A DNA stretch of 64,000 nucleotides from an uncultured Planctomycetota bacterium (GTDB taxonomy: Bacteria > Planctomycetota > JAJSAM01 > JAKLKS01). Location: the NCBI GenBank assembly GCA_964370855.1, contig CAYJMF010000001.1, positions 5,905 to 69,904 of the forward strand. The letters run 5' to 3'. Each line of letters opens with the position of its first letter. The first letter of the stretch is position 1. This document shows positions 4,395 through 53,955 of the stretch, piece by piece. Below the pieces are notes generated by a model that was given only the letters and a program-made list of their open reading frames with translations, did no database searches and was not told where the DNA came from. The position numbers were made by a program, and so were the translations under genes.

Positions 4395-4715
4395 GCGGCC
4401 TCCCGACCCGGGGCGCGCCCTGCCGGCGCCCCCGCTCCGAGGAGCCTAACGTGGAGGGGGCCCATCGACTGCTTCTTGGTTGCCGGGGCGGTCCGGGAGT
4501 CCTCCACCGGGGCGGGGCAGGTGCGGGGCCCCCGGGGTAGAGTCCCGGGGTCACCACCGGGAGGTCCCTTGGCTGGTCCCAGATCCGTCGAACCGGGCTT
4601 CGGGCGCCGGATGCCGCGTCTCCCGGCGGTGGAGACGCTCGCCCGGATCCCCCCGCTGGCCATCCTGGTGTTCCGGGCCACGGCGCCGGTGGCGGTGCCC
4701 CGGAAGGCGACCACC

Positions 4716-24799: not shown

Positions 24800-26188
24800 T
24801 CACTCCCCGAGGGGCACGACAACCACGCGGAGGCTCAAGAAACCGCTGTTGTCCGTGAGGTTCTTGTCATTGACACGGACCGTGAGTTCGCCGCCCTCGT
24901 TCTCGATGCGCACGAGACCTGAAACGACTCCCGCCACGATCACAGCCTTGCCGGCCCGGAGGAGCAGAGACCCGTGGGTGTACTGCCCGTCGATGGAAAG
25001 GCGGTCGAGTTCATCACCGGCGAAACCCCCGGGGCCGCACTTCCCGACGAAGGTCCCGAGGGTCCACTCTCCGCTGGCGCTGATCCCGATGAGATCCCCT
25101 TTGCGAGCGGTCGCACCTATCTCCTTCCAATCAGAACGGGAATCCACCTTGACCTTAAGGTCCTTGATGCCACCAACGGCCCTCTCCAGCTTCTCAACCG
25201 ACGCGGCCCCATCCTTCCGAGTCTTCTCCATCCACGCTCTCGTCTCAGCGAACCCCAACTTGGTTTCGTAGGCCCCGTTCTGATCGAGGAACCCCGTCAG
25301 GTCGTCCATCATCGTCCCGATCCGCCCGATGTTCGCTTTCGAGTCGGAGCGCACGCGTTCAAGAGCGCTGATCAGGGACTGCGGTTCCGGGGTCTTCAGG
25401 CTGGCGACGAACCTCTCTTGCAGGTCAGCCTTGAAGCGCTCGATCTCCGACTTGATGAGTTGAACCTTGGCGTCCACCTGCTTGCGGACCGCCGCCGGAT
25501 TGAGAAGCCGAAGCGCGACGGGGACGACCGTTGGGGATCCCTTCCAAGTGGCATCCGCCTGGAACGTCAGCCGCCCGGACAGGTTGTCGGCAGCCTTCGT
25601 CAGGTCGGCGCTGATCGTCACCTGCGCGGGCGTCACACCCCCTGAGGGGGTCACCTTGAGCCACGGGTCGTCCGTCGCCACGGTCCATCGCAGCCCCGCC
25701 TTCCCCGGGGAGTCGACCGTCAATGCAACGGTCGCGGAGGAGGGCTCGCCCGCATCGCCCTCCAGCGTCACGGCCTGGGTCGGGCCGATGCGCAGGCACC
25801 CAAGGGCGGTGAATCGGACCGGAACGTCCACAGATCCCTGCTTCGACTCGAAGCGCAGGGACACCTCGTTCTCTCCGTACTTCAGCTTCTCGTGGTCGAT
25901 GGTGAGGTTCAGGTCCGCCGGAGTGCCACCCGTCGCGCTCGACAGCGTGACCCACTCCGCCGGAGACGAGGCCGTCCAGCCGACGCTCTGGTCGGGTTGG
26001 TCGCTGGCCAACTTCAGGGCCATGGCCTTCGGTGGCTCGGTGTCGCTCCCGAACTTCCCGGTCACGATGGCAGACGTGGGGGACACGGTGAGCCTGGGAG
26101 GAGGACCGCACGCAGCGAGGCCTGCGCACCCAGCAACGAGCACAAGCGCTTCCGAGAGAAGGACCGACGGCGTCTTCATCTTGCCCAT
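24800..26188 (-). CDS. secreted lipoprotein of unknown function
   Basis: ATG 26188 gives MGKMKTPSVLLSEALVLVAGCAGLAAC, a signal peptide with a LVAGC lipobox. C-terminal beta-rich region (GEWTLGTFVGKCGPGGFAGDELDRL...). The track starts at an upstream GTG (26221). Confidence 0.7.
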   Translation of the reverse strand: MGKMKTPSVLLSEALVLVAGCAGLAACGPPPRLTVSPTSAIVTGKFGSDTEPPKAMALKLASDQPDQSVGWTASSPAEWVTLSSATGGTPADLNLTIDHEKLKYGENEVSLRFESKQGSVDVPVRFTALGCLRIGPTQAVTLEGDAGEPSSATVALTVDSPGKAGLRWTVATDDPWLKVTPSGGVTPAQVTISADLTKAADNLSGRLTFQADATWKGSPTVVPVALRLLNPAAVRKQVDAKVQLIKSEIERFKADLQERFVASLKTPEPQSLISALERVRSDSKANIGRIGTMMDDLTGFLDQNGAYETKLGFAETRAWMEKTRKDGAASVEKLERAVGGIKDLKVKVDSRSDWKEIGATARKGDLIGISASGEWTLGTFVGKCGPGGFAGDELDRLSIDGQYTHGSLLLRAGKAVIVAGVVSGLVRIENEGGELTVRVNDKNLTDNSGFLSLRVVVVPLGE

Positions 26189-26237
26189 GGCGTCCTCCAC
26201 GACCGTGTCCAGCCCATTCACTGGTAGCCTCTCCCTG

Positions 26238-26299
26238 CATTGCAGCGCATGCCATCATCGACGTGTCAGTTGCTCACGGGAAGGACAATCGTGGTCCCC
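26238..26299 (-). promoter_or_regulatory. conserved ~62-bp cis-element, copy 1 (upstream of the lipoprotein gene)
   Basis: cattgcagcgcatgccatcatcgacgtgtcagttgctcacgggaaggacaatcgtggtcccc; about 54/62 identical to copy 2 at 33672-33733. In gene sense it contains CACG-N11-CGTG. Confidence 0.5.
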
Positions 26300-26420: not shown

Positions 26421-28670
26421 TCATGACACACTCTCGGCAAGGAGCCTGCCCATCGCCCTTCGAGCCCCTTTGGGATCGAGGTGACCGGAAGCGTAAGTAG
26501 CCGCGAGCAGGTCCGCGGGGAGGAGAGAGTCGTACTTCTCGCGAAGCCTGTTCTTGACGCCCTCGGCCATCACGATTCCTGACGGAGGGTCCGATGCCTC
26601 CAATGGCTCGAGGATCTCGCGCATTTCCCGGGGGGACTTTCCCATGACCTGGAGCGCGATGCCATCGTGGCTGACCTCGAGCCCCCTGCCCTCAAGGAGG
26701 ATCCGGATGGTGTGCATCGCGAGATCGCCCATCCACGGGAAGAGGAGTGTGTCGGAGCCGCTTGACACGATGCGGGACTTGTCGAGTCCCAGAGCCGCGA
26801 AGTTGCCTCGGGCCTCGATGAGGAGACGCCGTGCCGTCGTGTCGAGGTAGGGCGGGACCTCCGAAGAACCGTAGACCCTCACCATCTCCTCCCGCACCCG
26901 ATCATGAACGAGGGCACGGCCCCCGCCGAAGAGCGGCGCCCTCCCTCCGGGGGCGGGCACCAGGTCGATGACCAGGCTCTCCGCGTCCACCGAGACGACC
27001 TTCCAGCGCCGCCCCGCGAAGATGAGGAAGGCCCCGACCGTGAGGGGGTAGTCGATCGGGAGCGACCCGAGCGTCCTCCCCCCGTGAACGAGTCGGTACT
27101 CGTCGGGCGTCATGAAGACCGCGTAGAACGAGTAGTGTCCGACGATGCGCTCCCCGGTCAACCCCAGGGTGAGGGAACCGTCAGATGTCTGGACGAGGAC
27201 GTCATGCTCGCCAAGGGCACGAAGCAGCTCGGCGAAAGCCCCCTGGTTGACTCCCTTGAACGGGCCTGACACGCAGAGGGCCCGCCATGCCTCCAGGGCC
27301 TGGACGCCTCCATACTGGGAGATGAGCGACAGGAGCTGCTGGACCAGGGTGGAGAGGTGCAGGGCGCCCACCCGCGGCGGCTCGTTCCACCGAGCCAGCA
27401 GCAGCTGGACCATGGCGATGGTCTGGACGAGCTCGGCGCGCAGGCGGTCCTGGGGCGGCGTGCGGGGCGTGATCTCCCGCTCCCGCACGTAGCCCCGCAG
27501 GATCCCCGGCTCTCCTCGGCGCCCGGAGCGCCCGAGACGCTGCCGGAGGCTCGCCACCGAGGGCGGGGTGCCAACCTGGGCGATGCTCGTCACGCGACCA
27601 ATGTCGATGCCGAGCTCCAGGGTGCTCGTGCAGACTGCGGTCGCCGGACGGCCCCCTTCCTTGAGGATGCGCTCCACGTCCTCGCGGAGCTCCTTCGAGA
27701 GGTTCCCGTGATGGGGGTAGAACTCGTTCGGGACGCGCTCCCGCTCGCACAGTCGCGCCAGGAGATCGGCGTACCGCTCGACGCGGTTCCGGCTGTTGGC
27801 GAAGACGAGATTGCTCGTCCCGCGGAGAGTCTTGAAGAGGTGTTCGACGATGGCGATCTCGTCGCCCGTGGGCTCCTCGGACTCCGATGGCTCCTCTCCC
27901 ACCACCTTGGGCATCGGATCTGCGGCGACGTAGCCACGGACCTGGAGCTTGAGCTCCTGGGCCTCTCCGGCGGCCTCGATGACCCGAACCGCTTCTCCCC
28001 GGCCCGGCCGGAGGAACTCCGACGCCATGGCCATGTCGCCCAAAGTGGCGCTGAGCCCGATCCTGGGGACCCGACGGCGGAGGACGAGTTCAACCCTGTG
28101 GAGCAAGGACTGGAGCTGTCGGCCGCGCTCGGACCCGATGAAGGAGTGCAGCTCGTCGATGACCACGTGCCCGAGCCCCGAGAAGACCTTCCCCACCTTG
28201 AGGCCGTGGATGACGAAGAGGGCCTCCAACGACTCGGGGGTGATGAGGAGGATCCCCGAGGGCTCCGCGAGGAGCTTCTTCTTGCGACCACCGTCCACGT
28301 CTCCGTGCCAGCGGTGCACCGGGATCTCGAGGTTCTCGCACAGCCGATCGAGCCGCTCGAACTGATCGTTGATGAGAGCCTTGAGCGGGCTCACGTAGAG
28401 GACCCGGACGCTTCCCTCGGACTTCCCGACGAGCATGGAGACGATGGGCAGGAAGGCGGCCTCGGTCTTCCCGCTCGCCGTCTGCGCCGCGAGGATGACG
28501 TCCTCGCTCCCCCCGAGGATGGGATCGACGGCCGCCTCCTGGACGTCGCGCAGATCCGTCCAGCGCTGCTCCCAGATCCAGCGGCGGACCTTCTCGTGGA
28601 GCTTCCCGAAGGCCGCGGAGGGGGAACTCGCCGCCCCGGGGCTAGAGCCGGAAGGAGGAGAGGTCATCAT
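26421..28670 (-). CDS. sngC: DEAD/DEAH-box (SF2) helicase; third gene of a TerB/ATPase/helicase (Shango-like) operon
   Basis: Start MMTSPP at 28670 (the track ORF extends to 28976). Motifs AQTASGKTEAAFLPIV (motif I), VIDELHSF (DExH), LSATLGD (motif III), helicase C-terminal domain (ICTSTLELGIDIG...QRLGRSGRRG), plus a long C-terminal extension. Overlaps the preceding gene by 29 nt. Confidence 0.8.
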   Translation of the reverse strand: MMTSPPSGSSPGAASSPSAAFGKLHEKVRRWIWEQRWTDLRDVQEAAVDPILGGSEDVILAAQTASGKTEAAFLPIVSMLVGKSEGSVRVLYVSPLKALINDQFERLDRLCENLEIPVHRWHGDVDGGRKKKLLAEPSGILLITPESLEALFVIHGLKVGKVFSGLGHVVIDELHSFIGSERGRQLQSLLHRVELVLRRRVPRIGLSATLGDMAMASEFLRPGRGEAVRVIEAAGEAQELKLQVRGYVAADPMPKVVGEEPSESEEPTGDEIAIVEHLFKTLRGTSNLVFANSRNRVERYADLLARLCERERVPNEFYPHHGNLSKELREDVERILKEGGRPATAVCTSTLELGIDIGRVTSIAQVGTPPSVASLRQRLGRSGRRGEPGILRGYVREREITPRTPPQDRLRAELVQTIAMVQLLLARWNEPPRVGALHLSTLVQQLLSLISQYGGVQALEAWRALCVSGPFKGVNQGAFAELLRALGEHDVLVQTSDGSLTLGLTGERIVGHYSFYAVFMTPDEYRLVHGGRTLGSLPIDYPLTVGAFLIFAGRRWKVVSVDAESLVIDLVPAPGGRAPLFGGGRALVHDRVREEMVRVYGSSEVPPYLDTTARRLLIEARGNFAALGLDKSRIVSSGSDTLLFPWMGDLAMHTIRILLEGRGLEVSHDGIALQVMGKSPREMREILEPLEASDPPSGIVMAEGVKNRLREKYDSLLPADLLAATYASGHLDPKGARRAMGRLLAESVS

Positions 28671-30012
28671 CGCCGCGTCCCGGTAGCGGGGGAATCTGGG
28701 GCGAAGCAACCGCCCCGCCGGGGCCTCCGATCTCCTCCTCGCCGGGGAGGGGCTCGAGATCGGGGTTGCTCTCGGTCGGGACCTGGACGCCGCCGAGCAG
28801 GTCCTTCCAGTTGGCGCCGGGGTTCTGCTCCAGGACGGAGAGGAAGTCGGCGAAGGCCTTGATCGAGTTCCGGGGAGTCCGGAAGTAGGAGTCCCCGATC
28901 CTCTTGGAGCAGTGCTCCAGGAAGCCGTGGAGCGCTTCGTCCGGGACGAGGTAGGCCTTCTCGTCGCCGCTGGCATAGACGTGGCGGATCTTCCCGAGGA
29001 GGACGTAGAGGTCCTCCGGGGTGAGGTTGGGAAGGCGCAGAACGGGCCCGCTCATGTCCACGAGGCCGTCCCGGGCGAAGGTGTTCTCGGCGAGGCGCGA
29101 CTGGAGCGCCTGGTAGCTGTAGAGGCCCTTCCGGGTGTCCATCAGGAACTCCGGAGTCCCTCCCTTCACGAAACCCAGCGACTCGGCGGAACCCTGGAAG
29201 CAGTCATTCACGATGCGCAGCACCTGCTCGTAGTTGGCGTTGCGGGCCTGGGTGTGGGCGAGCTTGTAGAGGTTCACCATCTCGTCGAGGCAGACGAGCA
29301 CGCCGCTGAACCCCGCCAGGCGGACGAACCGGGCAAAGAGCTTCAGGTGGTCGTAGAAGCTCGCGTCCTCGATGATGGTCCGTACCCCGAGCGCAGACCG
29401 GGCGTCGGTCCTGGTCGTGAACTCGGCCCGGAGCCACCGGAGCGCGTCGGACATGAGCTGCTCGTTGCCCGTGTCGTGGCCCTTCCAGTAGGCCGCGACG
29501 ACCGCGGCAAAGTCGTAGCCGCCCACCATCTCCGACAGGTCTCGAAGGCGCTCCTGGATGACCTTCTCCGGGCTGACGCCCCGCTCTCGGGCCTCCGTCA
29601 TGGCGGTGCTCACAAACCTCTCCACGACGCTCGGAAGCGCCCCTCCGTCGGGTTTCGCACGGGTGGACAGGTTCCGCATCAGCTCTGCGTAGAGCGAACG
29701 GGCCTGGCCGCCCGTCGCCTGGAGGCGGCGGTCCGGGGTCAGGTCCGCGTGGGCCGTGACGAGCTTCTTCTCCATGGCCACGGCGCGGACCAGGTGGAGG
29801 AAGAAGGTCTTCCCCGAGCCGTACTCCCCGATGACGAACCGGATGGCCGAGCCTCGGTCCGCGATTCGGTCGATGTCCTGCAGGAGGGCCTCGATCTCCC
29901 TGGCCCTGCCGACCTGGATAAGATGCTGTCCCACGCGGGGCACGACCCCGGCCCGAAGCGACTGCAGGACCGCATCCCGGTCCTTCGCGCGGATCTTTCT
30001 CGGCTCGGTCAT
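28642..30012 (-). CDS. sngB: P-loop ATPase (DUF2791-like); second gene of the Shango-like operon
   Basis: ATG 30012 (MTEPRKIRAKD) overlaps the TerB gene's stop (ATGA). Walker A GEYGSGKTF and Walker B VLVCLDEM. The long upstream part of the 823-aa track ORF is read-through noise. Confidence 0.8.
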   Translation of the reverse strand: MTEPRKIRAKDRDAVLQSLRAGVVPRVGQHLIQVGRAREIEALLQDIDRIADRGSAIRFVIGEYGSGKTFFLHLVRAVAMEKKLVTAHADLTPDRRLQATGGQARSLYAELMRNLSTRAKPDGGALPSVVERFVSTAMTEARERGVSPEKVIQERLRDLSEMVGGYDFAAVVAAYWKGHDTGNEQLMSDALRWLRAEFTTRTDARSALGVRTIIEDASFYDHLKLFARFVRLAGFSGVLVCLDEMVNLYKLAHTQARNANYEQVLRIVNDCFQGSAESLGFVKGGTPEFLMDTRKGLYSYQALQSRLAENTFARDGLVDMSGPVLRLPNLTPEDLYVLLGKIRHVYASGDEKAYLVPDEALHGFLEHCSKRIGDSYFRTPRNSIKAFADFLSVLEQNPGANWKDLLGGVQVPTESNPDLEPLPGEEEIGGPGGAVASPQIPPLPGRGDDDLSSFRL

Positions 30013-33000
30013 CGCAGGAACTCGCTCAGGGCCACGGCGTTCACATCGATCGGATCGTCCCCCTCGCAGAGGGGCTCCCCGCATCTCTCCAGAGCCGTCT
30101 CGTTCAGAACATCCAGCGCACCGTCGGGCAGCAAGCCCACCTCCGAGGCCACCCTCTCGAGGTCGGGGCGGCTCCACTGCGGTTTCGCGGCAAGGCCGCG
30201 GAGGAGTCGGCTGTGCGCGGCGTCGAAACCCTCGACGAGGTCCTCTTGGACCGACTCGGCGGGTTCCGGTGCTGCCGGCGCCTCGCACTCCTCCGAGGCG
30301 AAGATACCGCTCAGGAGGCTGGCCACGGCGGCCGTTTCCCGGAGTTTCACCTCGACGGCCTCCATATCGATGGTCACACGGCCGACGTCCGCGGGCTTCT
30401 CCGAAGCCGGCGGCTGAGGGACTGCGAAGGTCCGCGCCGGTGCCCCGGCCACGAAGACCGAGACCGGCCCGACGTCGGGAGCCGTTGGCCGGCTTGCGTG
30501 GGCGTGGGCCCGACTGAAGACTTCCTGCTCCGGGAGCCCCATCGCCTTGAAGAGCTGTCCGAGGACCTTCACCTCCGCCGGCTCGAACCGCCCGTCGGCC
30601 CCGGCGACGGACACGAGCAGGTTGGCGAGAAGGTCGCGCTGGCCCTCGGGGACCTCGATGAGCCGCTTCTTCACTCCGCCCATCCCCGGGGGAGACGCCG
30701 CGAGGTGGCGAAGGTGCGCCCGCAGACGGGTCCTCTCGGGCGGGGAGAAGTCCATGGACGACTCGAGGTGCTCCTCGAGGTGGTCCATCTCCTCGGGGCT
30801 GACGGCCCCGTCGGCGGCGGCCACGACCGAGGCCAACCGTAGAAGGAGCGAGCCGGCGAGGTAGGACGGCGTCGGGGCCTTGAGGGAGGGCTGCGTCTCC
30901 CGGAAGAGGACGACCTTCTCCCCTTTTCCCGGCGCGGCACCCCCGAACCTCACGTCGGGCTCCAGCCCGATGCCCTCCCGTTCCAGGACCTGCGCCAGGG
31001 CGACGGCGTCCGCCTTCCTGAGCTTGTTGCCCGCCACCCCGGGCCATCGCGCGAACAGGTCCTTCCCTTCGACCACGACGTGGTCCTTCCCGGCGAGGGA
31101 GGTGTCCACCCACTCGAGGAGCGCCTTTCCTCCCGCCGTCTCCCTAGGGGACACGAGCCCCTCCGGGAGAAGCGCCGCGGCGGCCAGGGTGCCCGCGGCC
31201 CTGGGACTGCGGTTCACGAACCGGCTGTAGGCATCAAGCTCGTCGGCACAACGGTCGGCGAGCTCGGCCAGGTCGTGGATGGGGCGGCTCAGCCGGTCGA
31301 TGTCGGGAAGGCCATCCACGACTACCTGCTGGGGCCGCGGGATCCCCGAGCAGGCCGGGTTGTACTCCACCCTCCACTTCACGGACCTGGCCGCGACACG
31401 GAGCCCCTCGGCGTAGGCCTGCGAGTAGCGAATGAGGAAGATCTTCCGGAACTCTTCGGGGCATCGTCGCGCCGGAGTCCGGAATCTCACCTCCGGGTGG
31501 TGCAGGAGCCACGCGAACGCCCACTCGCCGGGAAGCGGCTTCCCCTCGGAGATGAATGTTCCGATGGCCTTCTTCAATCTCGGAGGGATGCCCCACCCTC
31601 GCCCTTCCAGGGGCGTCGAGGGTGCGGCAGCCTCGGGTGCCGGCAGGATGAATTCCACGAAGTCGAGGAACTGCCCGGAGTAGGAGCGGAAGGAGCCGTT
31701 GCTCCCGTTGAGTTCGCGAAGCCGCCGCACCTCGTCCAGCAGGGCTCGTGTCTCGGCGACCAGCGTGGCGCTCCGGCTCCGGTCGCCGAGGATGCGCCTC
31801 TCGATGCCGTAGAAGTGCAGGAACACGTGTCCGATGCCGATGCCCGGGTCGTTCCTCCCCTGCTCCATCCATTCGATGTGGGCGGCACGGGCCGCAGGAG
31901 TGAGCGTGGAATAGGAAGGCCAGTAGCTCATCGTGGCCCCGGCCCGGTCGGGACTTGTGAAGTTGGCCGGCAGCTTCGGGTCAATGAGGGCCGGCTCCGC
32001 GTCCCACTCCGACGAGAGGCTGGGCAGTCCCTCGCCGAAGTAGTACCCGCCGCCGGGGAGTTCCCTCCCGCCGATTCGCACCGAACTCCCCGGAGGGACC
32101 CAACAGTCCTGCTCTCTTGCCTTCCCTTCCTTCTTGGACCGGGTCCCGAAGCCGACTCCATCGAACGTGACGGAGTCCTCCTCGGGTTCCCTCCCCCGCG
32201 TCAGGGAGCTGCCCCCGACCTTGACCTCAACCCTCAAGCCGTACCCGAGGTTGACCGCGAGGGGAACTGTCCCAGGAAGGGGCTCGACTCTGACGGGCTC
32301 TCGGCCTGGACCGGGTTCCGGGGGCGAGTAGCTCACGGGCCTCTCCGGGGCCGTCGCCGGCACGCTCTCCCCCCTTGGTGGCGGCCGGTCAGGCACCATC
32401 CTCGAAGGTTCGGTGCCAAGCCTGTCGAGGCACGCCTTTGCGTCCACGTGCTGGAGGTTCACCGCGAAGAACTGCTCCCTCGTCGCGTAAAGAGCGTGGA
32501 CACGGCGGGTCTCCTCCTGCCCCGTCGCCGGATCCAGGTCCCGGACCCACGCCCGCACCGAGATCGCCTTCGTGTGATTCGTGTAGAGCGAGTGGAACGC
32601 CTCGTAGGCGGTTCGGAGCGTGGCTTGCACGAGGGCCGCCTCGAAGAGCGCTCGATGGTCCGCCTTCTTCATCGCGGTCGGCCGCACCTCGTCCCCACGC
32701 GCCACGTACCTGTACTCGGCCACGGACGGGATCGCCCGCTGCGGCGGGAGCATCACGTCCACGACCAGCGTCCCCCTGGGCGCGTCATACACGGCGGTAT
32801 ACTCCCGCGGGAAGCAGTCCGGGTAGGTCGAGCGCTCGAAGACCCCGCGCACGTACTCCTCGATGGCAGAGGCCTCGCCCGCATCGAACCGCCGGCGAAA
32901 GTCCTCCACCTCCCGATTGCGCTCAGCCTGTCCTTCTTCGTACCGCGCCTTCTGACGCCAGTGGGACTCCCATGACTTCTTCCTGGCCTCCTCCCAGGCT

Positions 33001-33605
33001 CGCACCTGGCTCTGCCATCGCTCTTCGTGAGCGCGGGCCTTCTCCTGATCTCCCTGCAGGATCTCCGCTTCAAGGGCAAGTCGTCGCCTCTTGAGTGACG
33101 GCAAGAGCCACTCCCAGAAGCTCGGCTTGGGAATCGAAGAGGGTAGAGGTGAAGGTGGTTGGACGGGGTGGGGGGGCTCGAACGAGAACGGCGGGAACGG
33201 CGCCGTGTCCATGAGCTCCGCCCACTCGAGCCTGGGACTCGTCTTGAGGGCGGCCGGCAGGAGCGAACCCAGGGCCGTGAGCGTCTCCTGAAGACTCTGG
33301 TTCGCCCGCTCCGCATCGTCCTTCGCCCGATCGCGGGCGTCCGTCTTGGCGGCGGCGATCCGCTGCCGGATCTCCTGCTCGTCCCACTTGAGGAGGAGGT
33401 TCTTCGCCTTGCCTCGGACTTCCGCGTCGGACTTCCCCTGGACCGTCCGCACCTCGTTCAAGCAGGAGTTCCGGACGGTCGCGACGTAGACGGGGACGGA
33501 ACGCCGCCGTCCCGACGGAGTCATCCAATCGACCGTGACCCCAATGGTGTGGGACCTTCGCTCGATTTCAGCCCGGATCGCCCGCTCGTCCTCTTCCGAC
33601 CCCAT
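30009..33605 (-). CDS. sngA: large TerB-N/TerB-C domain protein; first gene of the Shango-like operon
   Basis: TerB-type motifs (LRLASVVAAADGAVSPEEMDHLEEHLESSMDFSPPERTRLRAHLRHL and LANLLVSVAGADGRFEPAEVKVLGQLFKAMG). Start chosen at 33605 (MGSEEDE), downstream of the conserved cis-element; 33674/33692 are alternatives. 1198 aa. Confidence 0.75.
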   Translation of the reverse strand: MGSEEDERAIRAEIERRSHTIGVTVDWMTPSGRRRSVPVYVATVRNSCLNEVRTVQGKSDAEVRGKAKNLLLKWDEQEIRQRIAAAKTDARDRAKDDAERANQSLQETLTALGSLLPAALKTSPRLEWAELMDTAPFPPFSFEPPHPVQPPSPLPSSIPKPSFWEWLLPSLKRRRLALEAEILQGDQEKARAHEERWQSQVRAWEEARKKSWESHWRQKARYEEGQAERNREVEDFRRRFDAGEASAIEEYVRGVFERSTYPDCFPREYTAVYDAPRGTLVVDVMLPPQRAIPSVAEYRYVARGDEVRPTAMKKADHRALFEAALVQATLRTAYEAFHSLYTNHTKAISVRAWVRDLDPATGQEETRRVHALYATREQFFAVNLQHVDAKACLDRLGTEPSRMVPDRPPPRGESVPATAPERPVSYSPPEPGPGREPVRVEPLPGTVPLAVNLGYGLRVEVKVGGSSLTRGREPEEDSVTFDGVGFGTRSKKEGKAREQDCWVPPGSSVRIGGRELPGGGYYFGEGLPSLSSEWDAEPALIDPKLPANFTSPDRAGATMSYWPSYSTLTPAARAAHIEWMEQGRNDPGIGIGHVFLHFYGIERRILGDRSRSATLVAETRALLDEVRRLRELNGSNGSFRSYSGQFLDFVEFILPAPEAAAPSTPLEGRGWGIPPRLKKAIGTFISEGKPLPGEWAFAWLLHHPEVRFRTPARRCPEEFRKIFLIRYSQAYAEGLRVAARSVKWRVEYNPACSGIPRPQQVVVDGLPDIDRLSRPIHDLAELADRCADELDAYSRFVNRSPRAAGTLAAAALLPEGLVSPRETAGGKALLEWVDTSLAGKDHVVVEGKDLFARWPGVAGNKLRKADAVALAQVLEREGIGLEPDVRFGGAAPGKGEKVVLFRETQPSLKAPTPSYLAGSLLLRLASVVAAADGAVSPEEMDHLEEHLESSMDFSPPERTRLRAHLRHLAASPPGMGGVKKRLIEVPEGQRDLLANLLVSVAGADGRFEPAEVKVLGQLFKAMGLPEQEVFSRAHAHASRPTAPDVGPVSVFVAGAPARTFAVPQPPASEKPADVGRVTIDMEAVEVKLRETAAVASLLSGIFASEECEAPAAPEPAESVQEDLVEGFDAAHSRLLRGLAAKPQWSRPDLERVASEVGLLPDGALDVLNETALERCGEPLCEGDDPIDVNAVALSEFLR

Positions 33606-33671
33606 CGGCACCCCACCGTTCAGCGCCCGTCTGCTCCGATTCTCTCCTTCAGCAGCCGGAGGAACTCCCTT

Positions 33672-33733
33672 CATTGCAGCACCCACCATCATCGACGTGA
33701 TGGTTGCTCACGGGAAGGACAATCGTGATTCCC
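33672..33733 (-). promoter_or_regulatory. conserved ~62-bp cis-element, copy 2 (upstream of the TerB gene)
   Basis: cattgcagcacccaccatcatcgacgtgatggttgctcacgggaaggacaatcgtgattccc; see copy 1. Confidence 0.5.
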
Positions 33734-34001: not shown

Positions 34002-37000
34002 ATGGGCCGGCAAGGTGAGGGCATTGTCATGATGAGATTCCGGGGCGCATCTCCTGATTCCTCTCGACCGAGGTGGCGGTGGGCGCTGCGTTCCATAGCC
34101 AACTGCGGACTCATGGTGCTCCTCGCCGCATCGCCGGGCAGTTCCGAGGGCGCGGAAGAGAGTGCTCCCTCCTGGGAGGTCTACACCAGCCCCTTGAACC
34201 GCACCCCGTATGAGATCCATGTGGACCGGAAGGCCCGGACCAAGACCTTCGTGGGGCCCACGGGGGAGACCTTTGGCTCCATCGAGGAGATCCTCGCCGC
34301 CGAATCGAGCGGGCTGAGTCCCTTGCAGCGGGTCGTCGCCCCCTCCCTCTGGGGCCACCTGCAGTCCCCCACGCCCTCGGGGGACCTGGTCCCGGTCACC
34401 ATCGTCCTTCGCAACCAGCCCGCCCACGACGCGAGCCAGGTCGCACGGGAGCGCCATGCGCCTCGGCTCGCCGAGGCCCTCGGCAGGGCGCGGCGGATCC
34501 TCGGGCGCCTGGAGCCCCTCCTTCCCTCGCCCGAGGTCCGGAAGCGGATGACCCTCCGTCAACTCATGGAGGCGGAGGGCGCGCTCCTCACGGTCGAGGA
34601 GAAGGCCGAGTTGAAGGCCGTTCGCGAGGAAGTCCGCGCCACGCTGGGGATCCTGCGGTCCGAGGTCCTGGCTCAGGCACGTTCCCAAGCCCAGGCGGAC
34701 AAGGCCCCCATCGTGGCGTGGCTCGCCGCCACGCCCGGGTGCAGGCTCGTCGGGGACTCCACCATCCTCAGCGCGGTCTTCGCCGAGGTCCCGGGCCACG
34801 TGATCGAAACCATGGTGGAGACCTTCCCGGAGATTGCCCGCGTCTCACCTATCGGCCGGGCCGAAGCGACCATGAACACCAGCACGGGGACCATCGGCGC
34901 CTCCGACTGGTGGAACGCCGGGTACAACGGGAGTTCCTCGACGAAAGTGGCGGTGGTGGACTCCGGGGTTGACTCGGGACACCCGGCCCTTTCGAGCGTG
35001 GTCTCCGACGCCGCAGTCCACCTCGCCTACGGGAAGCTATTGTCGGTCTTCAACGACAGTTCCACGAGTACCGACGACCTCCACGGGCATGGCACCCATG
35101 TGGCCGGAACGGTGGCAAGCACTGACTCCACCTACCGGGGAGTGGCCTACGGCGGTTTAGTGATGGGCGCGAAGTGCCTGTTCAGGACCACCACCGGAGG
35201 CGCCGGCGGGGTTGACCCCGACATCTTCAGCGCCATGGACTGGGCGACGGACAACGGCGCCGACGTCTTGAACCTGAGTCTCGGGGGCTCCTCATCGAAC
35301 GGCGGGGAGAGCGACATCGCACACTTCTGCGATGCCGTTGCGTACGGCCTTGTCATCCCCGTGGCGGTGGCCAGCGGGAACTCGGGCTCAAGTTCCGGAA
35401 CCGTGGGAACTCCCGGGGACGCCTACAACGTCATCACCGTCGGCAACTTCGATGACTGGGACACGACCGGCCACTCCGACAACATCTTGTCCTCCTCCAG
35501 CAGCAGGGGGCCCACTTCGGATGGAAGGCGGAAGCCCGACTTGAGCGCGCCGGGGGAGGACATCGCTTCCTGCAACAACACCTGGGAAGGTGCGGGCTCC
35601 GACTTCGTGAACAACTCCGGCACCAGCATGGCGTGCCCCCACGTCGCCGGCTCCTGCGGCATCCTCCTTGACTACGCCTCGTCCTGGTCCCCGGAGGCGC
35701 TGAAGGCCCTTCTCGTCACCACGCCAAGGAACACGTCACCGTACCCGACCTCCCCCGACAACAACTGGGGGTACGGCGGCTTGAACCTCGCCTCCGCCTA
35801 CGCGCACCGGGCCTCCATCTACGAGGGGACGCTGACGAAGACCGGACCGGAGTTCGTCTTCCTGAAGCTGGGCTCCATGACTGCGGGGGACAGGTCCACC
35901 CTCGTCTGGAACCGCCACGTGACCTCGAACAACGCCTCCGCACCGACGGTGTACTACTCGCTCCTCGACCTTGATCTCTACCTCTACGACGAAGCAACGG
36001 ACACCGAGCTCGACTACAGCCTCTCCGGGCTCGAGCCCGTCGAGCAGTGCTCCGTCTCCTCGACGGTCTCCTCTCCCGTCGCCAAGGTGTACCGATACGA
36101 CTCCTTCCCCTCGGCCTTCTCGACGGAGTACTTCGCCTTTGCGTCCGAGACGACGACCTCCCCGACCCTGGCGGATCCCCCCGAACTTGCCTGCACCTTC
36201 ACTTCGCTGCCCTCCTTCGTGGCCGCGTCCACGTCCTTCACCGTCACGGTCCAGGTCACCAACCAGGGGGACATCCGAGCCTTCTCGCCGGAAGTCACCC
36301 TGTCCATCCCGACCGGCTACACGGTGCTCTCGGGCGCCAATCCGAGGACGCTGTCCAACCTGTCGGCGGGCGCGTCGACCAGCGTCTCTTGGACCGTGCA
36401 GTCTCCCTCCTCGGGAGGCACCGCCACCTTCGACGCCGAGGCCTGGACCATCTCCTATGGCGAGCTCTTCTATGGGGACACGGTCTCCCAGGCCATGGCC
36501 ACCGATTCGGCGGCTCCAACCGGGTCGGTGGCCCTGGATGCCGGTGCCGCCGCCTCCCAGGATCTCGACGTGACCCTCTCCATTAACGCCACGGACGATC
36601 GCTCGGGGATCGCCGAGATGCGGATCCGCAACCAGGGCGATTCCTGGCCCGCCTGGACGGCCTTCAGCGCCACCGTGGCCAGGACCCTTCCGGAGGGCGA
36701 GGCGGAGAGGACCGTCGAGGTCCAGCTCCGGGACGCCGTGGGGAACGTCTCCGCCACCCTCTCGGACTCCATCTACCACGACCTGACTCCTCCCACGGGT
36801 TCGGTCGTCGTCGGAGGCGGAGCCGCCTACACCAATGCTAGGCCTACGCCGTTGACCCTGGACGCCTCCGACGGCGTGAGCGGGGTCCAGGACATGCGCT
36901 TCAGGACCGATGGCGTGAACTGGGGCAGCTGGATCCCCTACGCGGCATCGACCTCCCTGGACCTCGGGTCCGTTGACGGCGCCAAGACCGTCGATTGCCA

Positions 37001-38588
37001 GTTCCGGGACCGGGCACTGAACGTCTCCTCCACGGTCCAGGACGGCATCGTCTACGACGGCACCGCCCCCACGGGGACTCTTTCCGTGGAGGACGGCGCC
37101 TTCTTCACCGGCACCTCGACGGTGGATCTCACGATCTCCGGACTCGATTCCCTCTCCGGCCTGGAGGGGATGCGGTTCCGGGGATGGGCCGCTGACAGCG
37201 ACACGTGGTCGTCCTGGGTGCCCTTCTCGACCTCCCACACCATGGTGCTGAACGCCGCACAAGGGCTCCTGACCATCGGACTCCAGGTCCGGGACTATGC
37301 CGGGAACATGTCCACGGTCGCCTCCGACGGGATCTACTTCGACGCGACCCCGCCTACCGGGACCGTCCTCCTTCTCGACGACAGGGCCGCCATCAACACC
37401 ACCGCGATCCAGGTCCAGATGTCCTGGAGCGACGTCGGTTCCAGCGTGGAGGCCTACCGCCTGCGCAACGAGGGCGGTTCCTGGACCGACTGGGCTCCTC
37501 CCACCGCCGTCCTCCCCTGGGACCTTCCTGCGGCAGACGGAGTCAAACGCGTCGAGGTCGAGTTCCGGGACCTTTGCGGACTCGTGTCCAGCACCCTCTT
37601 CGACGAGATCCTCCTGGACACCGTTCCCCCTGTGGGGTCCTTCGCCCTGAACGGCGGGGCCGGGTACCTGCTTCCCTGGGAGGCCCTCGAGGCCGTCACC
37701 ACCTCCGAGGACACCCCCGATGGATCCGGTGTCGACGGTTACCGGTACTCCACGGACGGTGGGGAGACCTGGTCCGCCTGGTCGGACCTGGCATCGGACG
37801 GCGTCCATGAGGTGACGCGCCCGGGTGCGGTCCACCAGGTTGAGGTCCTGGGGCAGTTCCGCGACGCCGCCGGGAACGAATCCGTTGCCAGCGCCGAGTC
37901 CATCTACTTCCTGAAGGGAGACCCCCAGCGGCTGACCTTCACCCCGAACATCCGCGGGACGACCGAGCCGGGGGGCGACCATGACGCGTTCACGGTGGAC
38001 CTCGGCCCCGGGGATCTCCTCGACTTGAAGGTGTCCGCCAAGAGCAGCATCAAGAAGGGGGACTTCCAGCTCCTCGTGGACGTGTACGCTCCCGACGGGA
38101 CGAAGGTCGTGGACGGCCTCTACCCCTCCAGCTCCAAGAAGGTCGGCGTGAAGAAGTTCCCGGCTCCCGTGGCGGGCCAGTACTGGGTGGTCCTGCGCCC
38201 TCTGGGGGCGGACCTCGACGCGGGCGCGTACTACACCCTGAAGTCCAAAGCCCGGATGTCGAAGACCCGTCGCGTGATCGCGGGTTCGGTGACTCCTGCC
38301 GGGGTCCCGCCGTCCGCCGTTGTCCAGATTACCGCTGCGGATCGCGAACAGCTCAGCGGCACGATCCAGATGGCGGTCCTGGAGTCGATCGAACTCCACG
38401 GGCCCAACGACTGGACCGACCCGGTGTCGTTCACGTCCAAGGGCTACAAGCGGACCCTGCCCTCCCGCACGCTCGGCTCTGGGTCGGGGACCTACGACCT
38501 CGAGCTCTTCGGCAATGGGCTGGCCTCCTACAAGTTCCTGCTGAAGCCGCCGGTCCAGGACAAGGCCTTGACGGAGGAGGAGGAGTAA
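34002..38588 (+). CDS. secreted subtilisin-like serine protease (peptidase S8) with five tandem ~93-aa Ig-like repeats and a C-terminal PPC (pre-peptidase C-terminal) domain
   Basis: Catalytic triad contexts VAVVDSGVDSGHP (Asp), HGHGTHVAGT (His), GTSMACPHVAG (Ser). Five repeats each beginning D-x-T/A-P-P-T-G. C-terminal FTPNIRGTTEPGGDHDAFTVDLGPGDLLDL...YYTLKSK is PPC-like. Arg-rich n-region plus hydrophobic core indicates a signal peptide (start 34002 or 34029). Confidence 0.8.
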   Translation: MGRQGEGIVMMRFRGASPDSSRPRWRWALRSIANCGLMVLLAASPGSSEGAEESAPSWEVYTSPLNRTPYEIHVDRKARTKTFVGPTGETFGSIEEILAAESSGLSPLQRVVAPSLWGHLQSPTPSGDLVPVTIVLRNQPAHDASQVARERHAPRLAEALGRARRILGRLEPLLPSPEVRKRMTLRQLMEAEGALLTVEEKAELKAVREEVRATLGILRSEVLAQARSQAQADKAPIVAWLAATPGCRLVGDSTILSAVFAEVPGHVIETMVETFPEIARVSPIGRAEATMNTSTGTIGASDWWNAGYNGSSSTKVAVVDSGVDSGHPALSSVVSDAAVHLAYGKLLSVFNDSSTSTDDLHGHGTHVAGTVASTDSTYRGVAYGGLVMGAKCLFRTTTGGAGGVDPDIFSAMDWATDNGADVLNLSLGGSSSNGGESDIAHFCDAVAYGLVIPVAVASGNSGSSSGTVGTPGDAYNVITVGNFDDWDTTGHSDNILSSSSSRGPTSDGRRKPDLSAPGEDIASCNNTWEGAGSDFVNNSGTSMACPHVAGSCGILLDYASSWSPEALKALLVTTPRNTSPYPTSPDNNWGYGGLNLASAYAHRASIYEGTLTKTGPEFVFLKLGSMTAGDRSTLVWNRHVTSNNASAPTVYYSLLDLDLYLYDEATDTELDYSLSGLEPVEQCSVSSTVSSPVAKVYRYDSFPSAFSTEYFAFASETTTSPTLADPPELACTFTSLPSFVAASTSFTVTVQVTNQGDIRAFSPEVTLSIPTGYTVLSGANPRTLSNLSAGASTSVSWTVQSPSSGGTATFDAEAWTISYGELFYGDTVSQAMATDSAAPTGSVALDAGAAASQDLDVTLSINATDDRSGIAEMRIRNQGDSWPAWTAFSATVARTLPEGEAERTVEVQLRDAVGNVSATLSDSIYHDLTPPTGSVVVGGGAAYTNARPTPLTLDASDGVSGVQDMRFRTDGVNWGSWIPYAASTSLDLGSVDGAKTVDCQFRDRALNVSSTVQDGIVYDGTAPTGTLSVEDGAFFTGTSTVDLTISGLDSLSGLEGMRFRGWAADSDTWSSWVPFSTSHTMVLNAAQGLLTIGLQVRDYAGNMSTVASDGIYFDATPPTGTVLLLDDRAAINTTAIQVQMSWSDVGSSVEAYRLRNEGGSWTDWAPPTAVLPWDLPAADGVKRVEVEFRDLCGLVSSTLFDEILLDTVPPVGSFALNGGAGYLLPWEALEAVTTSEDTPDGSGVDGYRYSTDGGETWSAWSDLASDGVHEVTRPGAVHQVEVLGQFRDAAGNESVASAESIYFLKGDPQRLTFTPNIRGTTEPGGDHDAFTVDLGPGDLLDLKVSAKSSIKKGDFQLLVDVYAPDGTKVVDGLYPSSSKKVGVKKFPAPVAGQYWVVLRPLGADLDAGAYYTLKSKARMSKTRRVIAGSVTPAGVPPSAVVQITAADREQLSGTIQMAVLESIELHGPNDWTDPVSFTSKGYKRTLPSRTLGSGSGTYDLELFGNGLASYKFLLKPPVQDKALTEEEE

Positions 38589-38803
38589 TCCGGAGGCTGC
38601 ACCTCTCCAGCGGTTCATCCGAGGACACCAGTCAGGAGATGGGACTGCCGGCCATGGCGAAAACCTCGCGGCCCCCTCTCGTGACGGCTCGGAGGTTGGC
38701 CCGATGGGAGCCCGACTCGGAGATGGGGCCGTCTAGAGGTATGCTCTTTGGAGTAGACGGTCCGTCGTATCGATGCCCCTGTTCGTATACGACTGAGGAA
38801 CTG

Positions 38804-39793
38804 ATGGCCACAGCTGCCCAGGTGAAGGCTCTGATCCGCACGTACGCTGAACGCGACGACGACCGGTTCTTCACGGTCGCGCTGCAAGTCGCTGCCCATG
38901 CTGCGCGGACCGGGCACACGAAGTTCGCTCAGGAGCTGAAGCAGGTCATCGAGGAGGCTCAGTCCCGGGCAAGGTCCGCACCACCCGCACCCGGCGCAAA
39001 GATCGTCTCGATCATCCAGCCCAGGGGTGAGTTGGCTGGCCTACTTACCGTCGAGTACCCGAAGCAGCGACTCGCGAGCATGGCGCTGGACGACTCAGTC
39101 CGCCAGAGGCTGGACCGAGTTCTCCTTGAACAGAGGCACCAAGGTCGCATCCGGGAGCATGGGTTTGGTCCGATGCGCAAGCTGCTCCTGGTCGGGCCAC
39201 CCGGGACCGGGAAGACGATGACCGCGGGGGTGCTCGCGGCCGAACTGGGACTCCCACTTTTCACCATCCAACTGGATGGCCTGATCACGAAGTACATGGG
39301 GGAGACAGCAGCCAAGCTGAGGTTGATCTTCGATGCGATCCGGCAGACGCGGGCGATCTACCTCTTTGACGAGTTCGATGCCATCGGAGGCAAGCGCGTG
39401 GCATCGAACGATGTCGGCGAGATCCGCCGTGTGCTCAATTCGTTCCTTCAGTTCCTGGAGCAGGACACCTCCGAGAGTCTTATTCTCGGAGCAACGAACC
39501 ACCCTGAACTTCTAGATCGCGCCCTGTTCCGACGATTTGACTCAGTCATCGAGTACGACCTCCCTTCACCCATAGTTGCCCAATCGGTGATGAAGGCACG
39601 GCTCTCCCTGCTCGACACCTCGGAGATCGACTGGAGAGCGTCTGTTGGTGGCGCGAAGGGACTCAGTCACTCAGACGTGGCACGCGCCTGTGAGAGCGCC
39701 GCCAAGGACGCCATCCTTGCACACAAACTGAAGATCGAGACGGACGCGCTCCTTCGAGCGCTGAACGACCGAAGGGCTGTTCAAGGCAGGTAG
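38804..39793 (+). CDS. ietA: AAA+ ATPase (IetA-like)
   Basis: ATG 38804 with GAGGAA SD. Walker A GPPGTGKT, Walker B YLFDEFD, sensor-1 GATNHPELLD. 18-nt gap to the downstream S8 peptidase gene. Confidence 0.8.
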   Translation: MATAAQVKALIRTYAERDDDRFFTVALQVAAHAARTGHTKFAQELKQVIEEAQSRARSAPPAPGAKIVSIIQPRGELAGLLTVEYPKQRLASMALDDSVRQRLDRVLLEQRHQGRIREHGFGPMRKLLLVGPPGTGKTMTAGVLAAELGLPLFTIQLDGLITKYMGETAAKLRLIFDAIRQTRAIYLFDEFDAIGGKRVASNDVGEIRRVLNSFLQFLEQDTSESLILGATNHPELLDRALFRRFDSVIEYDLPSPIVAQSVMKARLSLLDTSEIDWRASVGGAKGLSHSDVARACESAAKDAILAHKLKIETDALLRALNDRRAVQGR

Positions 39794-42508: not shown

Positions 42509-43144
42509 ATGGCACGAGTGGTCGGGCGACCTGGGAGCGTCACAGCCCTCGAGGCCGATGTTGACGCAAGGCGGCAAGAGGCGGTCGGTTGCCTTGGAGT
42601 GTTCGGCCGTGTCCTCAGCGCCGTCCTGGGTCAGAGTCGAATCGAGACCCGATCACGGGGCATGCTTCGGGCTGGCGCGTATGGGGAGACTCGTGTGGCC
42701 GAGGAGCTAGAGCTCCTCCCGGACTCCTACTGGGTCATCCACGATGTCCGCCTCCGGTCGACAAGCCCTATGAAGTTCGATGGCAAGGGGCTCTTCACAG
42801 CCCAGGTGGACCACCTCGTCGTGGGCCCCACGGGGGTGTTCGTGATCGAGGCGAAGTGCTGGTCCACGGACCTGGCGTCCGCCGACTTGCCCTTCAGCCC
42901 TTTCGACCAGGTTCGACGGGCCGGCTACCTGTGCTACAGGCTCCTGAAGGAGAATGTGGGAGAGACCAAGGTCCAGCAGATCATCGTCTCCGTCGGGGCG
43001 CCTCTCAGGAGGGTCAACGACCACCACGTCCAACTCGTTTGGCCTAACGGGTTGGTGCGCTGGATCGTGGGTGGCAGGGATAGGCTCCCTTCAGTTCGGG
43101 TAGACGCCATTGCGAACTATCTGGCGGGACTGGTCGGCACCTGA
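42509..43144 (+). CDS. NERD (nuclease-related domain) protein
   Basis: GETRVAEELELLPDSYWVIHDVRL...DHLVVGPTGVFVIEAKCWS matches the NERD core. Confidence 0.75.
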   Translation: MARVVGRPGSVTALEADVDARRQEAVGCLGVFGRVLSAVLGQSRIETRSRGMLRAGAYGETRVAEELELLPDSYWVIHDVRLRSTSPMKFDGKGLFTAQVDHLVVGPTGVFVIEAKCWSTDLASADLPFSPFDQVRRAGYLCYRLLKENVGETKVQQIIVSVGAPLRRVNDHHVQLVWPNGLVRWIVGGRDRLPSVRVDAIANYLAGLVGT

Positions 43145-53945: not shown

Positions 53946-53955
53946 GAGGTGTTCG

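What the first reader, a model, noticed from the sequence alone, without database searches (positions are those of the whole stretch)
26421..33605. TerB-N/TerB-C protein + DUF2791-like ATPase + DEAD/DEAH helicase operon: Shango-type anti-phage system with an unusually long TerB component
Gene order and domain content (TerB motif ADGxxxxEE repeated, Walker A/B ATPase, SF2 helicase) match the three-gene system described as Shango (SngA/B/C), an operon earlier predicted as a TerB-associated DNA-processing module. All three genes are coupled: the TerB stop overlaps the ATPase start (ATGA) and the ATPase and helicase overlap by 29 nt. The TerB protein here is ~1200 aa, with a large non-TerB N-terminal region.
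Basis: partly seen in the sequence, partly recalled or inferred. Interest (0 to 1): 0.5.

Follow-up and report, generated by a model that had tools for sequence, protein, structure and literature searches.

The report
Shango defence operon with borrowed head
This is a genuine three-gene Shango anti-phage operon inside a defence island, and its only unusual feature is that the TerB protein carries an extra 410-residue head domain that is normally attached to a restriction-type nuclease.

Summary
Three translationally coupled minus-strand genes lie at 26421-33605. They match the PADLOC SngA, SngB and SngC models almost end to end (E 3.5e-84, 6.6e-180, 6.2e-281), and Pfam finds TerB_N+TerB+TerB_C, PF10923 and DEAD+Helicase_C.

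New here: SngA residues 1-410 are a confidently folded module (pLDDT >90). It consists of a small beta-sheet, a long antiparallel coiled coil and an alpha/beta domain, with no Pfam family and no solved structural relative. It is homologous to the non-catalytic N-terminal two-thirds of a large family that PADLOC labels type IV restriction enzyme (PDLC03663, N-module + Mrr_cat). The SngA protein lacks the nuclease domain.

The same module heads other Shango SngA proteins, sometimes in place of TerB_N, and it also occurs as a separate gene beside SNIPE-type nucleases. About 60% of canonical SngA proteins instead have a hydrophobic N-terminal anchor, which this one lacks. The fusion is rare: 0 of 80 species-representative Shango loci and 2 of the 120 nearest SngA clusters carry it.

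The operon sits in a tRNA-Gly/integrase-bounded defence island. Verdict: a known system and a new architectural variant. The mechanism remains inferred.

The parts
30009..33605 (-). sngA: 1198-aa TerB-family protein (N-module + linker + TerB_N + TerB + TerB_C)
   Evidence: ORF. PADLOC SngA 3.5e-84, aa 492-1195 against model positions 30-522/528. Pfam. The same 1198-aa gene call appears on identical metagenome contigs.
32376..33605 (-). N-module of SngA (aa 1-410): small beta-sheet 23-57, antiparallel coiled coil (helices 60-113 and 169-241) with a conserved Pro-rich tip, and an alpha/beta domain 245-395
   Evidence: AF2 model with pLDDT >90 over aa 1-410. HMMER finds 1765 representative clusters at E<=1e-3. 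PADLOC PDLC03663 mREase_IV matches at 1.3e-22, model positions 70-367/544 only. No Pfam or NCBIfam hit. No significant PDB fold match.
32133..32375 (-). predicted disordered linker (about aa 411-491) between the N-module and TerB_N
   Evidence: pLDDT <50 for aa 413-490. This stretch is gapped and variable against P0002.
31470..32096 (-). TerB_N domain (aa 504-712), preceded by the conserved CWVP motif at aa 501-504
   Evidence: Pfam PF13208 1.8e-46. Motif position.
30519..30836 (-). TerB domain (aa 924-1029) with two ADGxxxxE motifs
   Evidence: Pfam PF05099 9.6e-12. Motifs.
30036..30395 (-). TerB_C domain (aa 1071-1190)
   Evidence: Pfam PF15615 2.2e-20.
28642..30012 (-). sngB: 456-aa BrxD-like (PF10923, former DUF2791) P-loop ATPase; its start overlaps the sngA stop as ATGA
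   Evidence: Pfam 2.7e-154. PADLOC SngB 6.6e-180. Walker A and B are present, and their core residues (G62, G65-K68, D243-E244) are invariant across five operons.
26421..28670 (-). sngC: 749-aa Lhr/MrfA-like DExH superfamily-2 helicase; 29-nt overlap with sngB
   Evidence: Pfam DEAD + Helicase_C. PADLOC SngC 6.2e-281. Nearest solved relatives are Lhr 5v9x/7lhl and YprA 6znp. Motifs I, II, III and VI are intact.
33665..33732 (-). copy 1 of a ~68-nt direct repeat, just upstream of sngA (role uncertain)
   Evidence: The 25-nt core is identical in both copies, with 2 hits in the window against 0 expected. Alignment.
26231..26298 (-). copy 2 of the same repeat, between the sngC stop and the downstream BACON-lipoprotein gene; its 3' end holds that gene's ribosome-binding site (role uncertain)

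Best explanation
The locus is a complete Shango (SngABC) anti-phage operon carried on a tRNA-Gly/integrase-bounded defence island of an uncultured high-GC bacterium. Its SngA is a chimera. The usual TerB_N-TerB-TerB_C scaffold is preceded by a soluble 410-residue head and a disordered linker of about 80 residues. The head occupies the position where about 60% of canonical SngA proteins have a hydrophobic membrane anchor. The same head precedes an Mrr_cat nuclease in a large family, heads other Shango SngA proteins (sometimes replacing TerB_N), and is also encoded as a stand-alone gene next to SNIPE-type nucleases.

Proposed mechanism. These steps are inferred, not shown. The N-terminal head is an exchangeable recognition or targeting adaptor that decides where or on what the system acts. 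SngA is the sensor and scaffold. On activation it engages the SngB BrxD-like ATPase and the SngC Lhr-like 3'-to-5' DNA translocase/helicase. These process invading or replicating phage DNA, so interference would come from ATP-driven DNA remodelling, or from hand-off to host nucleases, because the operon encodes no recognisable nuclease.

The following points are shown: family membership of all three genes, gene order and coupling, intact catalytic motifs, the homology and fold confidence of the head, its recurrence with different partners, and the defence-island context.
For: Identity: PADLOC SngA/B/C and Pfam hits, with overlapping reading frames.

Head: homology to the non-catalytic part of P0001 (BLASTP 8e-18 to aa 172-522, whereas its Mrr_cat is at 560-671). 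PDLC03663 covers N-module + Mrr_cat in P0005 (33-531/544) but only model positions 70-367 in the window SngA.

Distribution: 1765 representative clusters. Of the top 150, about 70 carry Mrr_cat and 9 carry TerB domains.

Context: all four TerB-fused members whose context was examined are followed by PF10923 ATPase and then a helicase gene; in L003 that gene runs off the contig end and is unannotated. Stand-alone heads lie next to SNIPE/T5orf172 genes.

Membrane anchor: 43 of 72 canonical SngA proteins have a hydrophobic 19-mer before TerB_N. This SngA, L001 and L003 have none.

Conservation: family-conserved residues are largely kept in the TerB-fused heads.

Acquisition: SngB similarity places window+L001 among canonical operons (70-72%) but far from L002-L004 (~50%), which implies at least two acquisitions.

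Island: PD-Lambda-1, IetA/IetS, Hhe/PDC-S37, NERD, Abi_alpha, tRNA-Gly and integrases.

Analogy: SNIPE homologues use variable N-terminal regions as adaptors (PMC13190303).
Confidence: 0.75

Rival explanations
1. The N-module is itself a cryptic PD-(D/E)xK-type nuclease. It would supply the effector that Shango otherwise lacks, making this a nuclease-armed Shango.
For: The alpha/beta domain has an alpha-beta-beta-beta-alpha core. It also has a D283 ... E297-x-(K/R)299 pattern reminiscent of PD-(D/E)xK. Its usual partners are nucleases.
Confidence: 0.1
2. The operon is not an immune system. It would be a TerB-linked DNA-repair or stress-response module, as first proposed for TerB-N/TerB-C + DUF2791 + helicase operons, with an Lhr-like helicase acting on damaged host DNA.
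For: SngC resembles the Lhr and MrfA repair helicases. TerB is historically a stress and tellurite-resistance protein.
Against: Homologous three-gene operons protect E. coli and P. aeruginosa against phages. This copy lies in a low-GC island next to at least five other defence systems and beside integrases and a tRNA. Its head is shared with nuclease-based defence proteins.
Confidence: 0.05
3. SngB and SngC are the BrxD + BrxHI components of a degraded or partial BREX system, not of Shango.
For: PF10923 is named BrxC_BrxD. The PADLOC BrxD (1.6e-43) and BrxHI (1.3e-119) models also match.
Against: The Shango models score four-fold and more than two-fold higher in bits. NCBIfam BrxD scores 144 bits against a cut-off of 350. 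No PglX, PglZ or BrxC hit appeared among the 20 large ORFs scanned with Pfam or the 10 scanned with PADLOC. A TerB_N/TerB_C gene is translationally coupled directly upstream.
Confidence: 0.02
4. The long SngA is an artefact: two adjacent genes (a head gene and a normal sngA) read as one ORF.
For: Stand-alone head genes of about 400 aa do exist. The two parts are joined by a low-confidence linker.
Against: There is one uninterrupted frame with no stop. Identical 1198-aa calls occur on many independent assemblies (31 contigs). P0002, at 54% identity, is colinear over its full length. The same fusion recurs in distant lineages (P0140, P0151, P0045, P0052, P0066, P0079, P0135).
Confidence: 0.02

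Closest known systems
Shango (SngA/SngB/SngC) of E. coli and P. aeruginosa PA14 (Millman et al. 2022, bioRxiv 10.1101/2022.05.11.491447; Johnson et al. 2023, PMC10250203)
   Same: Same three families in the same order: a TerB_N/TerB/TerB_C protein, a PF10923 ATPase and a DEAD/DExH helicase. All three PADLOC models match nearly end to end. The operon lies in a defence island.
   Different: This SngA has 490 extra N-terminal residues (a 410-aa folded head plus linker). It has no hydrophobic N-terminal segment, which 43 of 72 sampled canonical SngA proteins possess. The host is an uncultured high-GC bacterium. Activity is untested.
TerB-N/TerB-C + DUF2791 ATPase + SF2 helicase 'DNA-processing' module (Anantharaman, Iyer & Aravind 2012, Mol Biosyst 8:3142; cited from the reference lists seen and from my own recollection, since the paper could not be opened)
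   Same: It is the same operon type; that prediction was later named Shango.
   Different: I could not check whether that paper lists N-terminal fusions of this kind.
PADLOC mREase_IV model PDLC03663: 'restriction system protein' family, N-module + C-terminal Mrr_cat (PF04471)
   Same: SngA aa 97-397 align to model positions 70-367. The coiled coil and alpha/beta domain are homologous.
   Different: The catalytic Mrr_cat domain (model positions ~400-531) is absent and TerB_N-TerB-TerB_C stands in its place. The 'type IV methyl-directed' label is the database's annotation, not a tested activity as far as I could find.
BREX accessory pair BrxD + BrxHI (type 6 BREX, Goldfarb et al. 2015; from my own knowledge)
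   Same: SngB and SngC belong to the same ATPase and Lhr-like helicase families.
   Different: No other BREX genes were found, the BREX model scores are much weaker, and a TerB protein is the partner instead.
SNIPE / PD-Lambda-1 membrane-bound nuclease (PMC13190303)
   Same: It shares the concept of a conserved effector core with a highly variable N-terminal adaptor, often a transmembrane anchor. Stand-alone N-module genes sit next to SNIPE-like genes.
   Different: The effector is different (a GIY-YIG nuclease). The window's own PD-Lambda-1 gene (19704-22217) has no N-module.
Lhr (M. smegmatis, 5v9x/7lhl) and MrfA/YprA (B. subtilis, 6znp) helicases
   Same: They are the best solved relatives of the SngC motor core (E 5.5e-31 and 1e-26).
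   Different: They are repair helicases, and the matches cover the N-terminal motor domains only (about SngC aa 43-390), so the C-terminal half of SngC has no solved relative. They are not coupled to TerB or PF10923 partners.

Membership tests
Shango (SngABC) | SngA: protein with TerB_N, TerB and TerB_C domains | tested here: met
   Pfam PF13208 1.8e-46, PF05099 9.6e-12, PF15615 2.2e-20. PADLOC SngA 3.5e-84 over model positions 30-522/528.
Shango (SngABC) | SngB: PF10923 (DUF2791/BrxD-like) P-loop ATPase with intact Walker motifs | tested here: met
   PF10923 2.7e-154. PADLOC SngB 6.6e-180 over 4-424/439. GEYGSGKT and LVCLDE.
Shango (SngABC) | SngC: DEAD/DExH superfamily-2 helicase | tested here: met
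   PADLOC SngC 6.2e-281 over 3-715/720. Motifs I, II (DELH), III and VI.
Shango (SngABC) | Three genes adjacent, co-directional, in the order A-B-C | tested here: met
   Coordinates with 4-nt and 29-nt overlaps. The same order appears in L001-L004 and in most of L005-L084.
Shango (SngABC) | Protects cells against phage infection | not testable with these tools
   Shown only for the E. coli and P. aeruginosa homologues.
Shango (SngABC) | Canonical SngA architecture (about 660-900 aa, nothing but a short or hydrophobic segment before TerB_N) | tested here: not met
   1198 aa, with TerB_N starting at aa 504. 0 of 80 species-representative loci and 2 of the 120 nearest clusters share this form. 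This is an architectural variation, not a failure of the core definition.
Mrr-type 'type IV restriction enzyme' family (PADLOC PDLC03663) | C-terminal Mrr_cat (PF04471) PD-(D/E)xK nuclease domain | tested here: not met
   No Mrr_cat hit in SngA. Only model positions 70-367/544 are matched, whereas a true member, P0005, matches 33-531.
Mrr-type 'type IV restriction enzyme' family (PADLOC PDLC03663) | N-terminal coiled-coil + alpha/beta module | tested here: met
   PDLC03663 1.3e-22. HMMER hits to 994 clusters at E<=1e-10. BLASTP to P0001 at 8e-18.
BREX | PglX methyltransferase, PglZ phosphatase and BrxC alongside BrxD/BrxHI | tested here: not met
   No such hits among the 20 large window ORFs scanned with Pfam or the 10 scanned with PADLOC. 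NCBIfam BrxD scores 144 bits against a cut-off of 350. Small ORFs were not scanned exhaustively.

The most novel reading that the evidence does not exclude
The 410-residue head would be a previously undescribed, widespread (over 1700 clusters at 50% identity), portable infection-sensing or targeting module. Bacteria would plug it onto at least three unrelated defence effectors: the Mrr_cat nuclease in cis, the Shango TerB scaffold in cis, and SNIPE-type nucleases in trans. In Shango it can replace both the membrane anchor and TerB_N. If so, the N-terminal part of SngA is the input end of Shango. This soluble-head variant would then give a tractable handle on what Shango senses, which is currently unknown.
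Probability: 0.35. Interest if true: 0.6.

Novelty: new variant of a known kind. Interest (0 to 1): 0.35.

Why it matters
Shango is a validated but mechanistically unexplained defence system. The only current idea is 'membrane surveillance', based on TerB. This locus, together with its relatives found here, shows that the N-terminal end of SngA is exchangeable. It can be a hydrophobic anchor, other long extensions, or this soluble head, and TerB_N itself can be replaced by the head. That pattern points to the N-terminus as the specificity or localisation input, and to TerB+TerB_C plus SngB and SngC as the invariant core. It also flags an uncharacterised module, with no Pfam family and no structural relative, that is shared between restriction-like nucleases and Shango. 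For annotation, PADLOC-type pipelines may report a spurious partial 'type IV restriction enzyme' hit on such SngA proteins.

Tried and rejected
1. Word-index homology search with the head alone gave only one hit. The exhaustive HMMER search was needed to find the family.

2. A single-protein scan of species-representative genomes with full-length SngA found nothing. An SngB alignment then retrieved 80 loci.

3. Pfam at E<=10 and NCBIfam gave no family for the head. PHROGs gave only a weak hit of unknown function (phrog_38135, 8e-5).

4. PDB sequence searches found nothing for SngA or SngB.

7. I tested whether the head is a remote TerB_N homologue, because it replaces TerB_N in some operons. 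hhalign probability was 0.1-0.2%, so I rejected this.

8. I tested whether the window's PD-Lambda-1 protein also carries the head. It does not.

9. An apparently split sngC in one metagenome contig (L086) is an assembly artefact of Ns and poly-G.

10. The flanking 68-nt repeat has no Rfam match, is absent from the 84 loci held at that point, and its core is absent from the metagenome collection.

11. The Anantharaman 2012 paper could not be opened.

Full report
**What is at the coordinates**

The window is high-GC. Its flanks are at 0.72-0.75 and a lower-GC stretch (0.58-0.69) runs from about 5 kb to 60 kb. On the minus strand between 26421 and 33692 there are three long ORFs.

Start-codon inspection, an independent gene caller on metagenome contigs that are 100% identical to the window, and a colinear 54%-identical homologue agree on the gene boundaries:
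- sngA: 30009..33605, 1198 aa
- sngB: 28642..30012, 456 aa
- sngC: 26421..28670, 749 aa

The sngA stop and the sngB start share ATGA, and sngB and sngC overlap by 29 nt.

**Identity**

Pfam finds the following:
- SngA: TerB_N (aa 504-712, 1.8e-46), TerB (924-1029) and TerB_C (1071-1190)
- SngB: PF10923 (2.7e-154)
- SngC: DEAD + Helicase_C

PADLOC's SngA, SngB and SngC models match at 3.5e-84, 6.6e-180 and 6.2e-281 with near-complete model coverage. The related BREX models BrxD and BrxHI score much lower. NCBIfam's BrxD reaches 144 bits against a cut-off of 350. No other BREX genes appear among the large ORFs I scanned. SngC's nearest solved relatives are the Lhr and MrfA/YprA helicases, and SngB has none.

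Homologous operons were shown to protect E. coli and P. aeruginosa against phages, with no mechanism established. I found no later mechanistic paper.

**The extra N-terminal region**

SngA aa 97-397 also hit the PADLOC model PDLC03663, labelled 'type IV methyl-directed restriction enzyme', but only at model positions 70-367 of 544.
- In a true family member (P0005), the model is covered from 33 to 531, and Mrr_cat lies at the C-terminus.
- In P0001, homology to the window SngA lies at aa 172-522, whereas Mrr_cat is at 560-671.

So the SngA extension is the non-catalytic N-terminal module of that family. The nuclease domain is absent.

An exhaustive HMMER search with aa 1-490 found 1765 representative clusters at E<=1e-3 and 994 at E<=1e-10. 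Most are proteins of 400-600 aa with the module at the N-terminus.

AlphaFold2 with a 121-sequence alignment gave a confident model, with pLDDT >90 over aa 1-410. Its parts are:
- a three-stranded sheet (aa 23-57)
- two long helices (60-113 and 169-241) joined by a conserved proline-rich tip
- an alpha/beta domain (245-395), which is the best-conserved part
- a disordered linker (413-490)

**The module is portable**

Among the 150 best representatives, about 70 carry Mrr_cat and 9 carry TerB domains. The rest are short; some of these are complete head-only genes.

The TerB fusions come in two forms:
- head + TerB_N + TerB + TerB_C, about 1120-1200 aa (this protein, P0002, P0140, P0151)
- head + TerB + TerB_C without TerB_N, about 760-800 aa (P0045, P0052, P0066, P0079, P0135)

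Four of these had retrievable context. Each is followed directly by a PF10923 ATPase and then a helicase gene, although in L003 that gene runs off the contig end and is unannotated. They are therefore Shango operons. PADLOC confirms that P0045 matches only SngA model positions 310-519 behind the head. The head and TerB_N are unrelated (hhalign probability 0.1-0.2%).

Head-only genes P0008 and P0010 lie beside SNIPE/PD-Lambda-1-like nuclease genes. One pair has a 4-nt overlap and the other is divergent.

TerB-fused heads largely keep the family's conserved residues. This particular one deviates at N351R, G352A and C368R.

**How unusual it is**

An SngB-profile scan of species-representative genomes returned 80 Shango loci from many phyla. 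None has the head. Their SngA proteins are mostly 720-900 aa, and four have other long extensions.

Among the 120 nearest SngA-core clusters in the large protein collection, only the window's own protein (31 contigs) and P0002 are long.

A crude hydropathy scan finds a strongly hydrophobic 19-mer before TerB_N in 43 of 72 canonical SngA proteins. There is none in this protein, L001 or L003. The head thus stands where a probable membrane anchor usually is.

By SngB similarity, the window and L001 (82%) nest among canonical operons (70-72%). They are far from L002-L004 (about 50%). This argues for at least two independent acquisitions. The sampling was biased toward the window's relatives, so this is suggestive only.

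**Context**

tRNA-Gly (2882-2956) is flanked by two tyrosine-integrase genes. The lower-GC stretch carries these defence-related genes:
- PD-Lambda-1/SNIPE (19704-22217)
- an IS1595 transposase
- a BACON-domain lipoprotein
- Shango
- a large S8 subtilase, followed by IetA and IetS
- a NERD protein
- a radical-SAM/SPASM protein
- Hhe/PDC-S37
- Hypoth_Ymh
- Abi_alpha

This is a defence island.

**Mechanism**

The following points are shown:
- three coupled genes of the Shango families with intact ATPase and helicase motifs
- a folded, conserved head that recurs with different defence effectors
- no nuclease domain in the operon

The following steps are inferred:
- SngA is the sensor and scaffold.
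- Its N-terminal end is an exchangeable adaptor that sets location or trigger. A published parallel is the variable N-terminal adaptor of SNIPE (PMC13190303).
- SngB, a BrxD-like ATPase, and SngC, an Lhr-like 3'-to-5' translocase, act on phage DNA. They would do this either directly by remodelling or unwinding, or by exposing the DNA to host nucleases.

**Verdict**

The finding is real and correctly named. It is a known system and a new architectural variant. Its modest wider interest is that it exposes the N-terminus of SngA as a swappable input module, and it points to an uncharacterised head domain shared with restriction-like nucleases.

Noticed in passing
window 33665-33732 and 26231-26298 (minus strand): A ~68-nt direct repeat (~88% identical, with an identical 25-nt core CACGATTGTCCTTCCCGTGAGCAAC; 0 matches expected by chance) brackets the Shango cassette. 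One copy lies upstream of sngA. The other lies upstream of the BACON-lipoprotein gene, where its 3' end contains that gene's ribosome-binding site. It could be a duplicated leader or promoter, or an insertion or recombination scar. It has no Rfam match, is absent from the 84 related loci held at that point, and its core is absent from the metagenome collection.
   Followed up: partly
window 24800-26221 (-) and L001 109-1500: A lipoprotein with BACON_2 domains (signal peptide and lipobox) lies next to Shango both here and in the closest relative, L001 (51% identity). The Shango operon is inverted relative to this gene between the two genomes. In L001 the gene is called as two ORFs.
   Followed up: partly
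L089 5001-7429, L090, L091 3-2541: Stand-alone N-module genes of about 400 aa (P0008, P0010) sit directly beside SNIPE/PD-Lambda-1-like (DUF4041 + T5orf172) nuclease genes. One pair has a 4-nt overlap. This suggests a two-gene head + nuclease system.
   Followed up: partly
window 2882-2956, 685-2811, 3149-4717, and about 5-60 kb: tRNA-Gly(ccc) is flanked by two tyrosine-integrase genes at the edge of a lower-GC (0.58-0.69 vs 0.72-0.75) island. The island is packed with defence genes: PD-Lambda-1/SNIPE 19704-22217, IetA 38639-39793, IetS 39812-42331 preceded by a 1528-aa S8 subtilase 34002-38588, NERD 42509-43144, radical SAM/SPASM 44053-45087, Hhe/PDC-S37 46041-51749, Hypoth_Ymh 53836-54750 and Abi_alpha 55552-56208. 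An IS1595 transposase lies at 22991-24025.
   Followed up: partly
window 6341-11002 (-): A 1553-aa ORF has no Pfam or PADLOC hit. It lies in the lowest-GC part of the island (0.58-0.60), which also has a very strong AT skew (down to -0.37 at 7-9 kb). Its nature is unknown.
   Followed up: no
L005-L084 (SngA genes upstream of the SngB match): About 60% (43 of 72) of canonical SngA proteins have a strongly hydrophobic segment before TerB_N, consistent with a membrane anchor. Four (L009, L034, L037, L056) have other N-terminal extensions of 360-510 aa that are unrelated to the head described here.
   Followed up: partly
L091 2744-3643: The gene downstream of a stand-alone N-module gene encodes a 299-aa protein with a weak BRCT match (E 9e-4). 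By eye it also has TerB-like DG...E repeats. This was not tested further.
   Followed up: no
L086 5542-5643: The apparent disruption of sngC in one metagenome assembly is a scaffolding artefact (a run of N followed by poly-G/C), not a natural pseudogene.
   Followed up: yes
L001 9156-10882: In the closest related locus, a DarT + Macro (DarTG-like) pair follows the Shango operon. This is another sign that the cassette travels within defence islands.
   Followed up: no
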